64,000 nucleotides of DNA. Origin: a virus. Its lineage: Duplodnaviria; Caudoviricetes. Numbering within the stretch: position 1 is the first letter of the stretch; every line of letters begins with the position of its first letter. The stretch spans positions 32,001 to 96,000 of IMG/VR virus record IMGVR_UViG_3300029305_003246; one strand, 5' to 3'. The position numbers were made by a program, and so were the translations under genes. Under the pieces are notes generated by a model. The model worked only from the letters and a program-made list of their open reading frames with translations. It was not told the DNA's origin and did no database searches. Below are positions 15,830-38,777 of the stretch, piece after piece.

Positions 15830-16156
15830 ATGAATGATATAAAAAAGGGTGATATACTATTTGTAAACTTTGGTGAGCAAGAAGGTAGTGTCCAAAAGGG
15901 AAAAAGATATGCTATAGTAGTGAGCAATAATGTAGGTAATAAATACAGCACGACTATAATGGTAGTACCAACCACGACTAAGAAGAAAGCTAATCTCCCT
16001 ACACATTTTAATACTACTATTGAAAGGGATAGCACTATACTATGTGAGAATATAATGACTATATCTAAAGACCAAGTCATTAGGAAGTATAATACTTTAA
16101 GCAATGACGATATTAAGAAGCTTAATCATTGCTTAAAGGTAGCGATGACTTTATAA
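15830..16156 (+). CDS. PemK/MazF family endoribonuclease, no adjacent antitoxin
   Basis: KGDILFVNFG..GSVQKGKRYAIVVSNNVGNKYSTTIMVVPTT, S.ILCE.I.TISK. Confidence 0.88.
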   Translation: MNDIKKGDILFVNFGEQEGSVQKGKRYAIVVSNNVGNKYSTTIMVVPTTTKKKANLPTHFNTTIERDSTILCENIMTISKDQVIRKYNTLSNDDIKKLNHCLKVAMTL

Positions 16157-17986: not shown

Positions 17987-18080
17987 AATTGAAAATTTTT
18001 CGAAAAATAGGTATCTTTTCAAGAAAGCAACGTATAATAGAAGTATAATAAGTTATAATAAAATTTTAGGAGGTAGCCCT

Positions 18081-24008: not shown

Positions 24009-24049
24009 AAATTAGTAATCATTTCAAGATATAATCGTATAATAGAAGT

Positions 24050-24200
24050 ATAAGAAGGTTAATTAAATAAGTAATCAAGTTTAGGTAGGACTTCAAGTCA
24101 AGTCCATAGATTTCCTCTAGGGTGTATGATTACTTATTACCTTCTTAAGTTGAAGGCGACCTACTTGTCTAGGTCAGAGATTACCCTAGAGGACGTAAGA
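24050..24200 (+). ncRNA. Candidate pseudoknotted small RNA with its own promoter
   Basis: Promoter A at 24015-24043 and no ORF before the next promoter; stems taagaaggt/accttctta and ataagtaatca/tgattacttat; 11-bp tcctctagggt/accctagagga crossing pair. Confidence 0.6.
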
Positions 24201-24292
24201 AAAAAAGTTCAAAAGTTGGTATCAAATTTAAGATATCAACGTATAATAAGAGTATAGAAGTTAAAAATTAAATATTTCAGGAGGTAAACCCT

Positions 24293-24685
24293 ATGAAAAC
24301 TATAGTTGAATTAAAAAATGATATGATGGAAGTATTCGAACCTATGACTAAGGAAGAAGTTGAAATGTTATGTGGTGACGACTTCGGTAAGTTATTAACT
24401 ATAGAAGCAAATACTACTTACCTTGAAAATGAAAGAGTTATAGTAGTTGCCGATGGTACTTTCTACAACTTAAATAGAAACGATTTTAATAAGTTCAGAA
24501 TAAATACTCTTGAAGGTAGATGTTTCACTTATACTGATTATAAAATGCACAATAATCTAGATGACGCTTTCGAATTCTTAGGTTCTGCAGGTGAAAATGT
24601 AGTTGTAATAACTAGAAATTTATTCCAAGATGAAGATGGCGATTTTACTGAATTAGTTTACTACACTACTACACTTGAGGGATAA
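24293..24685 (+). CDS. Acidic hypothetical protein (paralog of 25082..25480)
   Basis: Shared LENER, YNLNR.DF..FRIN..EGR and VVITRN.FQDEDGDFT. Confidence 0.8.
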   Translation: MKTIVELKNDMMEVFEPMTKEEVEMLCGDDFGKLLTIEANTTYLENERVIVVADGTFYNLNRNDFNKFRINTLEGRCFTYTDYKMHNNLDDAFEFLGSAGENVVVITRNLFQDEDGDFTELVYYTTTLEG

Positions 24686-24735
24686 ATAAATGAAATAATT
24701 AGTTCACTTTTAAGTAGCTAAAACGTATATAATAT

Positions 24736-25035
24736 TATAGGGCAGGGTGGTCGATTTAGATTCACCCGTAAGTCCCACCTAATAGATAGTACACACGAAG
24801 CCTATACCATCCTCGAGTTGATGAGGGTGGCAAGCTGAATAAGGGTGTGGCATATAAAGTGGGCAGGGAGTCGATTTAGATTTACCCGTAAGTCCCACAC
24901 ATAATTGATAGTACCTTCCACGCCTATGCATCGCACGCGGAACAGGGAGAAGGTCGATAGATTTTGGATAGTATGGGATAGCCGATTTAGGTAAGTCCCA
25001 TCATAAGGGTGGAGCCGATTTAGGTGTACCACCCG
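24736..25035 (+). ncRNA. GC-rich repeat-structured RNA candidate with recurring C-GAUUUA-G hairpin loops
   Basis: CGATTTAG at 24752, 24872, 24983, 25016 (variant CGATAG at 24955), each closing a stem; promoter at 24702-24733. Confidence 0.65.
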
Positions 25036-25081
25036 TACATATTACAAGTTAATATGAATTTATTTTAGGAGGTAAGTCCTT

Positions 25082-25480
25082 ATGAAAAATATAGTTGATT
25101 TAAGAAATGATATGTATGAAGTATTTGAACCTATAACTATGGAAGATTATTATAATCTAAATGTTAAAGACCTTGGAGCTTTAGTTACAGTTGAAACTAA
25201 TGCAGGAAAATCTTTCCTTGAAAATGAAAGATTAGTAGTTATGGTAGGTAATAAAACTTATAATCTTAATAGGGATGATTTTACTCACTTTAGAATAAAT
25301 GCTTGTGAAGGTAGATACTTTACTTATACAGGGCATAAGTTGTTCAAAACTTTATTTGATGCCGTTCAATACGGGGAAGTTCTTAGAAATGAAGTTGTTG
25401 TTATAACTAGAAATATCTTCCAAGATGAAGATGGTGATTTTACTGATGTTTGGTATTGTGCTTGTACTTTAGAAGCTTAA
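25082..25480 (+). CDS. Acidic hypothetical protein (paralog of 24293..24685)
   Basis: Colinear similarity over full length. Confidence 0.8.
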   Translation: MKNIVDLRNDMYEVFEPITMEDYYNLNVKDLGALVTVETNAGKSFLENERLVVMVGNKTYNLNRDDFTHFRINACEGRYFTYTGHKLFKTLFDAVQYGEVLRNEVVVITRNIFQDEDGDFTDVWYCACTLEA

Positions 25481-25557
25481 TCTCAAGTAAATAAAACGGG
25501 TTGAGAAACTATCAACTCGTACCTTTAATAAAATATATTATATGGAGGTAAGCCCTT

Positions 25558-25977
25558 ATGGAAAATAAAACTATATTTGAATGTTTAAAAGAAGCTTGTT
25601 CACGCTCTACTCTAAATATGTTAGATATTAACCCAAATTATTTCTTTGGTGAAGTTGTACCTTACCCAATTCCATTCGACGATGGCGATATACTTGATTA
25701 TATAAGTTCTTTAACTGATGGATTTATGGAATCTGAATATAAGATGGTTCTTTATAACGGCACAGTAACTAAGCTAGATATTGATATGCAGGATTGTATG
25801 ATTGATACTGAGGATATCGAATGTTATCCTTTAGCGATATTAGAGTCTTATGAAGAAATGGTTCGCTTATGTTATAGCCAAGGTCAAAAGGACTTCGTCT
25901 ACTTAATATCTAAAGATTACGACGCTAATGATGATACTACAACTTATAGCCTATCTAGATTATTAAAGATAAAATAG
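25558..25977 (+). CDS. Acidic hypothetical protein
   Basis: RBS GGAGG; similar size and possibly distant relative of the two preceding paralogs. Confidence 0.7.
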   Translation: MENKTIFECLKEACSRSTLNMLDINPNYFFGEVVPYPIPFDDGDILDYISSLTDGFMESEYKMVLYNGTVTKLDIDMQDCMIDTEDIECYPLAILESYEEMVRLCYSQGQKDFVYLISKDYDANDDTTTYSLSRLLKIK

Positions 25978-25997
25978 AAGCCCTTCAGGGGCTTTTT
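25978..25997 (+). terminator. Rho-independent terminator
   Basis: aagccc-ttca(g)-gggctt plus T run. Confidence 0.7.
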
Positions 25998-26077
25998 ATT
26001 TTACTCAAATTTACATAGTTCATCATTCCCACTTCTTTCGTTTAGTATACCAATAAAATAAAAAAGGAGTGAATCTT

Positions 26078-26687: not shown

Positions 26688-26966
26688 ATGATGAAAAAAT
26701 TAGAAGCTTTAATGAAGGAAAATAAAAGGGTATACTTAGAGGTAAATGATAATCAAGTTGTCATCCACGTCAAAACTAAAGGAAGAGACTTTGGACGTAT
26801 AAAAGGTTATAAACCAGTTGAAGTTGTTACTAGCCCTATTGAAATAGATGAGCTTGTTAACATATTAAGAAATAATTACTTAGTAAACTACCTTGAAAAA
26901 GGAAGTAATATATTATTGATAAGAAATTTTAAAAATATGGTATCTTTTCAAGAAAATAACGTATAA
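26688..26966 (+). CDS. Hypothetical protein
   Basis: RBS AGGAGG. Confidence 0.65.
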   Translation: MMKKLEALMKENKRVYLEVNDNQVVIHVKTKGRDFGRIKGYKPVEVVTSPIEIDELVNILRNNYLVNYLEKGSNILLIRNFKNMVSFQENNV

Positions 26967-27016
26967 TAGAAGTATAGAAAGTTAAATAAAAAATTAAATA
27001 TATGGAGGTAAACCCT

Positions 27017-32407: not shown

Positions 32408-32584
32408 GATGAATTATTAATATATTATTTCTTACCTTTTAAAATATTTGATAAATTCTATTTGCTTGAGTTGGGAAAAATTTCTCAACTTTTTTTTATT
32501 TTTTAGGTATCTTTTGAAGAATACAACGTATAATAGAAGTATAAGAAGTTAAAATTAAATATTAAATATTTAGGAGGTAGCCTT

Positions 32585-38567: not shown

Positions 38568-38598
38568 ACATTTTCGCTACTTAAACGTATAATGAAAT

Positions 38599-38665
38599 TG
38601 ACAGTACCCTTCGAGCCTATACTTTAGCATACTAAAGCAAGCAGAATACTGAAGGGTCATCTTTT
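38599..38665 (+). ncRNA. Candidate small structured RNA between two promoter A copies
   Basis: acccttc/gaagggt enclosing ctttag/ctaaag; no ORF. Confidence 0.35.
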
Positions 38666-38777
38666 AAAATAAATTGAAAAAAATTAAAAAAGATGTAAAC
38701 TTTTCAAGAAAAAGTAATATAATAGAAGTATAAAGGTAATAAAAATAAAAATTAAAAATTCTAGGAGGTAAGCCCTT

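What the first reader, a model, noticed from the sequence alone, without database searches (positions are those of the whole stretch)
24702..25040. Repeat-structured RNA displaying the same GAUUUA loop on four covarying hairpins
Seen: a ~300-nt GC-rich, ORF-less island directly behind a promoter (GTTCA at 24702, TATAAT at 24728). CGATTTAG occurs at 24752, 24872, 24983 and 25016, with a shortened CGATAG at 24955. Each full copy sits at a hairpin tip while the stems change but still pair: ggtc/gatt, agtc/gatt, gcc/ggt; outer arms gggtg/caccc, atgggat/gtcccat, gggtgg/ccaccc. Units 1 and 2 are ~120-nt-spaced copies with an A/GUAA internal loop, different closing helices (tatagg/cctata versus gggtgtgg/ccacgcct) and a downstream GAUAGUA that appears three times. 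Many pairs are G-U. Inference: conserved loops on variable stems is the architecture of multivalent protein-sponge RNAs such as CsrB/RsmZ. This could be a phage decoy RNA that titrates a host RNA-binding or defence protein, or an antitermination leader. I do not recognise it as a known family.
Basis: partly seen in the sequence, partly recalled or inferred. Interest (0 to 1): 0.85.

Follow-up and report, generated by a model that had tools for sequence, protein, structure and literature searches.

The report
Orphan repeat-hairpin RNA in a phage
A 396-base GC-rich gap between two duplicated small genes of an uncultured 135-kb phage most likely folds into an RNA showing the same six-base loop on four hairpins. 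It matches no known RNA family, no second copy could be found, and its job remains a guess.

Summary
Window 24686-25081 is the GC-richest and second-longest of the phage's 37 intergenic gaps (41% against a median of 28%). It has no supported ORF. It holds 4 of the genome's 12 CGATTTAG (Poisson P about 5e-9), all 3 plus-strand GTAAGTCCC and 3 GATAGTA.

Each CGATTTAG sits on a hairpin tip. All hairpins are 3-6 kcal/mol more stable on the + strand, because of G-U pairs.

"Covarying" is overstated. One tip pair changes U-A to C-G and one H1/H2 pair changes G-C to A-U; with four copies this is not significant.

Rfam, tRNA scans, INPHARED, IMG/VR and GTDB genomes gave no relative. Three related metagenome contigs carry a single P0002 ortholog behind an ordinary promoter, with no island. 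The island therefore belongs to an accessory insert of about 1 kb: RNA1, a promoter, P0001 and the island.

No terminator separates it from P0002, so it is a leader or intercistronic RNA rather than a free-standing sRNA. The flanking proteins are acidic with no known fold, so they are unlikely partners.

Best reading: an accessory, multivalent protein-binding RNA of unknown partner. A sponge role is possible but untested. Other first-stage notes on this same genome flagged the stretch; none did on other DNA.

The parts
24702..24733 (+). Promoter-like site: CTTTTAAG ... AACGTATATAAT, with TATAAT at 24728-24733
   Evidence: Read from the sequence. By eye it resembles the phage promoter class ..TCTTTTCAAGAA-N4-AACGTATAAT. 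It is not recovered by the nhmmer class profile or by the sigma-70 scan. A start about 7 nt downstream would fall at the base of H1.
24740..24776 (+). H1: outer helix GGGC/GUCCC, internal loop A/GUAA, inner helix GGGUG/CACCC, tip GUC-GAUUUA-GAU
   Evidence: MFE -13.8 kcal/mol, z -2.2; -10.2 on the minus strand. Loop unpaired probability 0.97.
24785..24791 (+). GAUAGUA copy 1, in the single-stranded tail of unit A
24808..24829 (+). Middle hairpin CAUCCUC / GAGGGUG with an 8-nt loop
   Evidence: -10.1 kcal/mol, z -3.1; -5.3 on the minus strand
24843..24925 (+). Unit B: closing helix GGGUGUGG/CCACGCCU around H2 (24860-24897) and GAUAGUA copy 2 (24907-24913). Unit B is a 120-nt-shifted copy of unit A, 86% mean column identity over about 75 nt.
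   Evidence: -22.4 kcal/mol on +, -16.9 on -
24950..24965 (+). Short hairpin AAGGUC-GAUA-GAUUUU carrying the shortened CGAUAG
   Evidence: pairs only on the + strand (two G-U pairs)
24967..24973 (+). GAUAGUA copy 3
24974..25000 (+). H3: outer helix UGGGAU/GUCCCA, internal loop A/AA, tip GCC-GAUUUA-GGU
   Evidence: -11.0 kcal/mol, z -3.7; loop unpaired probability 1.00
25007..25034 (+). H4: helix GGGUGG/CCACCC, internal loop A/GUA, tip GCC-GAUUUA-GGU
   Evidence: -13.9 kcal/mol, z -3.3; loop unpaired probability 0.99
25035..25084 (+). Unstructured AU-rich linker, Shine-Dalgarno AGGAGG (25067-25072) and the P0002 ATG (25082). There is no terminator here.
24293..24685 (+). P0001, an acidic 130-aa protein and 53%-identical paralog of P0002. 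It is part of the accessory insert.
25082..25480 (+). P0002, an acidic 132-aa protein. Its orthologs in relatives are single-copy and have no island upstream.
24078..25081 (+). DNA that is extra relative to the related contig L003: RNA1, a second class promoter, P0001 and the island
   Evidence: Comparison

Best explanation
The island is a + strand structured RNA. It is made as the long 5' leader of the P0002-gene3 message, and as the intercistronic part of read-through transcripts coming from the P0001 promoters.

It folds into a string of hairpins. Four of them (H1-H4) present the identical C-GAUUUA-G hexaloop on a 3-bp tip helix, above an A/(G)UA(A) internal loop and a GC-rich helix. Three single-stranded GAUAGUA motifs lie between them.

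Shown: the sequence anatomy, the strand asymmetry, the lack of a terminator, its accessory status and the absence of any known family.

Inferred: the repeated loops are binding sites for one oligomeric RNA-binding protein, from host or phage, and not the acidic neighbours. Binding would set the stability, processing or translation of the downstream P0002-gene3 message. The same architecture would titrate that protein as a side effect or as its main effect.
For: - GC island: 41% against a median of 28% for 37 intergenic gaps, and the second longest of them. Long GC-rich gaps in AT-rich genomes are enriched for structured RNAs (PMC6429828, PMC8723152).
- Motif enrichment at P of 1e-5 to 5e-9.
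- Every hairpin is 3-6 kcal/mol more stable on the + strand because of G-U pairs. All four tips keep a G-U pair.
- The loops are unpaired with probability 0.81-1.0 in the ensemble of the full leader.
- The tip pair U-A in H1/H2 becomes C-G in H3/H4. G-C in H1 becomes A-U in H2 (read).
- TATAAT with the same ACG context as the phage's CGTATAAT promoters would start the RNA at the base of H1.
- There is no terminator between P0001, the island and P0002. The first one lies at 25978-26000, after gene3.
- The island is not a decayed copy of the paralogs and has no coding support.
Against: - Only one sequence exists, so no phylogenetic covariation can be computed. The internal compensatory change is not significant.
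- H2 alone folds no better than shuffles (z -0.9). The whole-island z is only -2.2.
- The island's own promoter is not recovered by the class profile.
- Relatives express P0002 orthologs without any such leader, so it is dispensable for that gene.
- No candidate binding protein was identified. P0001, P0002 and gene3 are acidic, pI 4.1-4.6. The phage encodes no CsrA.
Confidence: 0.4

Rival explanations
1. Trans-acting decoy or sponge. The RNA, perhaps after processing from the longer transcript, titrates a host RNA-binding or defence protein through its four identical loops.
For: - Four identical exposed loops on different stems.
- The island lies in an accessory cassette among small acidic early genes, which is typical anti-defence territory.
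- RNA-based counter-defence is known: Racrs (PMC10651486).
Against: - No terminator, so no defined 3' end.
- No GGA-type or any other recognised protein-binding motif in the loops.
- The unit does not occur as a CRISPR repeat or any other repeated element in 185,579 representative genomes.
- No host is known and there is no expression evidence.
Confidence: 0.2
2. A cluster of RNA-processing or stabiliser hairpins, such as RNase III-type sites or 5' stabilisers. They would uncouple the fates of the P0001 and P0002 cistrons, as in phage T7 early mRNA and Bacillus phage SP82 early transcripts (my own knowledge, not tested here).
For: - Intercistronic position in a terminator-free early operon.
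- Hairpins with asymmetric internal loops and conserved sequence.
- A stable hairpin at the predicted 5' end.
Against: - The helices are short, about 9-13 bp, below the roughly 20 bp usual for RNase III.
- Four sites in 300 nt is excessive for processing.
- The motif occurs in no other intergenic gap of the phage, unlike the dispersed T7 and SP82 sites.
Confidence: 0.15
3. A DNA-level element: iterons or an array of binding sites for a phage or host DNA-binding protein, or a strand-specific single-stranded DNA structure.
For: Direct repeats of an 8-13 bp core at spacings of 120, 111 and 33 bp. G-T pairs could also form in single-stranded DNA.
Against: - The stems need G-U pairs and are weaker on the other strand, which is irrelevant to double-stranded DNA recognition.
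- The repeat core is short and not helically phased.
- There is no AT-rich unwinding element inside the island and no replication initiator nearby.
- A GC-rich island fits folding rather than melting.
Confidence: 0.1
4. A functionless passenger: foreign GC-richer DNA brought in with P0001 by recombination, internally duplicated, and merely tolerated.
For: It is absent from the three related loci. There is no homolog anywhere. Units A and B are a recent-looking duplication, 86% mean column identity.
Against: Neutral DNA in a 31% GC phage should drift toward AT. The enrichment of identical loops at hairpin tips, together with the strand-specific pairing, is hard to get by chance.
Confidence: 0.12

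Closest known systems
CsrB/RsmY/RsmZ protein-sponge sRNAs
   Same: Many hairpins presenting one repeated loop motif on variable stems, giving a multivalent design.
   Different: The loops are GAUUUA, not (A)GGA. There is no intrinsic terminator. No Rfam hit was found. No CsrA is encoded in the phage. The RNA is fused to a downstream ORF.
RNA anti-CRISPRs (Racrs; PMC10651486)
   Same: Small phage-encoded structured RNAs in accessory regions that act as decoys. The island has a 29-nt near-identical unit and 27-28-nt hairpins, which are CRISPR-repeat-sized.
   Different: No CRISPR array or any repeated occurrence of the unit was found in GTDB representative genomes. The units are embedded in a larger fold, and the host is unknown. 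The first 8 nt of the loop motif (GAUUUAGA) match the start of the Leptotrichia Cas13a repeat, by my recall and as seen in the hits, but the repeat's own hairpin is absent.
Type III toxin-antitoxin RNA antitoxins (ToxI, CptI)
   Same: A promoter, then repeated structured RNA, then a small gene.
   Different: The repeats are imperfect and spaced 120, 111 and 33 nt apart, not tight 34-45-nt tandems. There is no terminator. The downstream protein is not ToxN-like.
Phage early-mRNA processing hairpins (T7 R sites, SP82 Bs-RNase III sites) and HK022 put-type leader RNAs
   Same: Conserved stem-loops with internal loops inside, or at the 5' end of, early polycistronic transcripts.
   Different: The helices are shorter. 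The hairpins are clustered at one locus rather than dispersed. No functional data or homology were found. The comparison rests on my own knowledge.

Membership tests
Any Rfam 15 family | Covariance-model score at or above the gathering threshold | tested here: not met
   No hit over the whole window at gathering. Only noise at E of 3.4 and above in 24500-25300 with permissive filters.
CsrB/RsmZ sponges | GGA motifs in hairpin loops | tested here: not met
   All four repeated loops read GAUUUA.
CsrB/RsmZ sponges | Independent transcript ending in an intrinsic terminator | tested here: not met
   No terminator-like site in 24200-25600. The next one lies at 25978-26000.
CsrB/RsmZ sponges | Cognate CsrA/RsmA protein present | tested here: inconclusive
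   None in the phage genome. The host is unknown.
Racr (RNA anti-CRISPR) | Mimics the CRISPR repeat of a host array | tested here: inconclusive
   An exact-pattern scan of 185,579 genomes gave 29 single chance hits and no array. Diverged repeats and unsampled hosts are not excluded.
Type III TA antitoxin RNA | Near-identical short tandem repeats followed by a terminator and a ToxN/AbiQ/CptN-type toxin gene | tested here: not met
   Repeat spacings are 120, 111 and 33 nt with 68-97% identity. There is no terminator. There is no Pfam hit for P0002 and no ToxN in the phage, although the ToxN control search rang nowhere.
Retron msr-msd | Adjacent reverse transcriptase | tested here: not met
   No RVT_1 match in the 135-kb genome.
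Replication-origin iterons | 17-22-bp direct repeats in helical phase, next to an AT-rich unwinding region and an initiator gene | tested here: not met
   The core is 8-13 bp at spacings of 120, 111 and 33. The region is GC-rich. The neighbours are unknown small genes and a sigma factor.
tRNA / tmRNA | ARAGORN detection | tested here: not met
   None in the window or in the genome.
RNase III processing sites of phage early mRNA | About two helical turns of double-stranded RNA with an internal loop, cleaved in vivo | not testable with these tools
   The helices are 9-13 bp. Cleavage needs end mapping.

The most novel reading that the evidence does not exclude
The island is the founding member of a new class of phage decoy RNA. 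It would be a multivalent array of C-GAUUUA-G hexaloop hairpins, carried on a mobile accessory cassette together with an acidic protein (P0001), that sequesters a host RNA-binding immune or regulatory protein during early infection.
Probability: 0.15. Interest if true: 0.85.

Novelty: new variant of a known kind. Interest (0 to 1): 0.45.

Why it matters
If the RNA is real and functional, it adds a new structured RNA, with no detectable relatives, to the short list of phage-encoded regulatory or counter-defence RNAs. It would show that such RNAs travel as accessory cassettes between closely related phages.

Its clean modular design makes it easy to test. Four identical loops, two hairpin sizes and natural strains that lack it all help. 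Pull-downs with loop mutants could identify the partner protein directly.

If it is only a leader or processing cluster, it is an ordinary feature of phage early operons.

Tried and rejected
Homolog hunts, all negative:
- blastn of the island against INPHARED phages.
- Exact or gapped motif scans of IMG/VR. Every hit was coding or low-complexity.
- A motif scan of GTDB genomes gave 29 chance hits.
- Protein-anchored searches with P0002, its alignment and the terminase in IMG/VR and in phage records.
- This scan's own index.

The single JGI metagenome scan found three related contigs, all without the island.

The ENA and Logan contigs that hold the 15 P0002-type clusters and the one other P0001-type cluster (P0017) could not be read.

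Ideas rejected:
- A decayed third paralog.
- A minus-strand protein gene.
- Hairpin units derived from copies of the phage promoter: the nhmmer profile does not hit them.
- A regulon of the same hairpin elsewhere in the phage: the other stem-plus-GATTTA cases are coding or a terminator.
- A MITE: no inverted repeats.
- Hammerhead, group II domain V or T-box look-alikes seen by eye: no Rfam support.
- P0002 as an RNA binder or a phi29-type SSB. It is acidic. No fold match was found (best Z 4.4). The Atlas lead was at chance level and was not backed by Pfam.

Full report
**Setting.** The window is bases 32001-96000 of a 135,413-bp IMG/VR phage record with direct terminal repeats and 31% GC. All genes around the finding are on the + strand. 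The portal protein is only about 27% identical to those of Bacillus, Listeria and Streptococcus myoviruses, so the phage is remote from any cultured one. The finding lies in a block of small genes of unknown function next to a sigma-factor gene.

**The observation.**
- The gap 24686-25081 (396 nt) lies between two paralogous ORFs. P0001 (24293-24685) and P0002 (25082-25480) are 53% identical.
- It is the GC-richest of the genome's 37 intergenic gaps of 80 nt or more (41.4% against a median of 27.8%) and the second longest. The other GC peaks of the genome that I checked are coding.
- It has no + strand ORF of 30 codons, and all three frames are full of stops. The two minus-strand ORFs have no Pfam or PHROG family and no homolog among 5.8 billion proteins.
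- It is not a decayed copy of the flanking genes.
- Motif enrichment is far beyond chance: CGATTTAG occurs 4 times (expected 0.018, P=5e-9), GTAAGTCCC 3 times (there is no other + strand copy in the genome), and GATAGTA 3 times (P=7e-6).

**Anatomy.** Four hairpins carry the same hexaloop, closed by a C-G pair, on a 3-bp tip helix G-Y-C/G-R-U.
- H3 (24974-25000) and H4 (25007-25034) consist of the tip, an internal loop A/AA or A/GUA, and a 6-bp GC-rich helix.
- H1 (24740-24776) and H2 (24860-24897) are longer: tip, bulge, helix GGGUG/CACCC, internal loop A/GUAA, and helix GGGC/GUCCC.
- The H3 helix matches the outer helix of H1 and H2. The H4 helix matches their inner helix. The modules are therefore mosaics of the same parts, read.
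- H1 and H2 belong to two 75-nt units, 120 nt apart and 86% alike (mean column identity).
- Between them lie an 8-nt-loop hairpin (24808-24829), a short CGAUAG hairpin (24950-24965) and three single-stranded GAUAGUA.

**RNA or DNA?** Each element is 3-6 kcal/mol more stable on the + strand than on the complement, because every one contains G-U pairs.
- The whole island scores z=-2.2 on the + strand and -0.9 on the - strand.
- The loops stay unpaired with probability 0.81-1.0 in the ensemble of the full leader.
- Of the eight CGATTTAG elsewhere in the genome, all inside + strand ORFs, seven fold at -6 kcal/mol or weaker and one reaches -9.6.
- This favours a + strand RNA over double-stranded DNA repeats. 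It does not exclude a single-stranded DNA structure.

**Covariation.** This is weaker than the title says. In the tip helix one pair switches U-A (H1, H2) to C-G (H3, H4), and the other two pairs never vary. With four sequences, 91 of 500 shuffles do as well. Between H1 and H2, one G-C becomes A-U. The different outer stems may come from different partial duplications rather than from compensatory change.

**Transcription.** The phage has a clear promoter class, ..GGTATCTTTTCAAGAA-N4-AACGTATAATAGAAGTATA.. .
- Five strong copies lie at 18006, 24009, 24213, 26935 and 32503, with weaker ones elsewhere. Each strong copy except the one at 24009, which is followed by RNA1, sits about 45 nt before a Shine-Dalgarno sequence and an ATG.
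- The island's site (CTTTTAAG..AACGTATATAAT, 24702-24733) resembles this class by eye. It has extra spacer bases and is recovered neither by the class profile nor by the sigma-70 scan.
- There is no terminator after P0001 or between H4 and the P0002 ATG. The first terminator is at 25978-26000, after gene3.
- The island is therefore transcribed, if at all, as a 340-nt leader of P0002-gene3 and as an intercistronic segment of longer messages.

**Relatives.** P0002 has 15 homolog clusters at 74-86% identity. P0001 has only one other. The whole family has six representatives at 50% identity among 1.8 billion proteins.
- Three JGI contigs (L003-L005) show the arrangement gene X, class promoter, a single P0002 ortholog, gene3, sigma factor. 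The leader is a 45-150-nt AT-rich stretch and there is no island.
- Their 5' UTR and first codons match those of P0001 in the window.
- The window's phage thus carries about 1 kb of extra DNA (24078-25081): a second structured-RNA candidate (RNA1, z=-2.4), another class promoter, P0001 and the island. The island is accessory.
- No copy of the island was found anywhere else.
Conservation and expression therefore remain untested.

**Possible partners.** P0001, P0002 and gene3 are acidic, with pI 4.1-4.6.
- P0002 gives a confident model (pLDDT 91) with no match in the PDB or BFVD. A language-model lead to the phi29 SSB is at chance level and is not backed by Pfam. These proteins are unlikely to be the RNA's partners.
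- The phage encodes no CsrA, ToxN or reverse transcriptase, but it does encode a PemK/MazF.

**Verdict.** The feature is real and is most likely a structured RNA of an undescribed type. The identical loops point to multivalent recognition by one factor. Whether the RNA acts in cis on P0002-gene3 (my preferred reading, 0.4), in trans as a decoy (0.2), as a processing or stabiliser cluster (0.15), as a DNA element (0.1), or not at all (0.12) cannot be settled with one sequence. It fails the defining features of CsrB-type sponges, type III antitoxins, retrons, iterons and every Rfam family. The test for Racr membership is inconclusive.

Noticed in passing
window 24052-24215: A second ORF-less structured segment (RNA1) lies behind the class promoter at 24009-64. 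It has a long helix CCUCUAGGGU/ACCCUAGAGG and folds with z -2.4. It is an insertion relative to the related contig L003, where the promoter runs straight into the ribosome-binding site.
   Followed up: partly
window 18006-18059, 24009-24064, 24213-24267, 26935-26986, 32503-32555 (weaker: 17217, 17623, 28735, 31683, 38695): A phage-specific promoter class, GGTATCTTTTCAAGAA-N4-AACGTATAATAGAAGTATA(A/G)G, with no canonical -35 box. It is confined to the 17-39 kb early or middle region and may be read with one of the phage's own sigma factors.
   Followed up: partly
window 38586-38680: CGTATAAT is followed by a hairpin of about 60 nt (ACCCUUC...GAAGGGU around CUUUAG-CAUA-CUAAAG) and a U run, with no ORF. 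This could be a small RNA or a terminator module between two genes. The fold z-score is only -1.1.
   Followed up: partly
window 25063-25087 and the ribosome-binding sites at 18070, 24280, 25545, 26990, 32570, 38765: The early genes share an extended Shine-Dalgarno context, GGAGGUA(A)RYCC(Y)UAUG. At P0002 it can fold into a mini-hairpin that pairs GGAGG with CCUU and covers the AUG. The 3' arm of H3 (UUUAGGUAAGUCCCAUCAUAAGG) resembles this ribosome-binding site, and the H3-H4 linker UCAUAAGG is complementary to CCUUAUGA at the P0002 start.
   Followed up: partly
window 15842-16141: A PemK/MazF-family toxin gene in the phage (80 bits, E=1.6e-23). Whether an antitoxin gene sits beside it was not examined.
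   Followed up: no
window 25082-25480 (P0002) and 24293-24685 (P0001): A tiny family of acidic proteins of about 130 aa, with six representatives at 50% identity in 1.8 billion proteins. The AlphaFold model is confident (pLDDT 91) and matches nothing in the PDB or BFVD.
   Followed up: yes
genome 116032-116424 (outside the window, about window coordinate 84032): The strongest GC peak of the genome (52%) is a Gly/Ala-rich coding stretch, not an RNA.
   Followed up: partly
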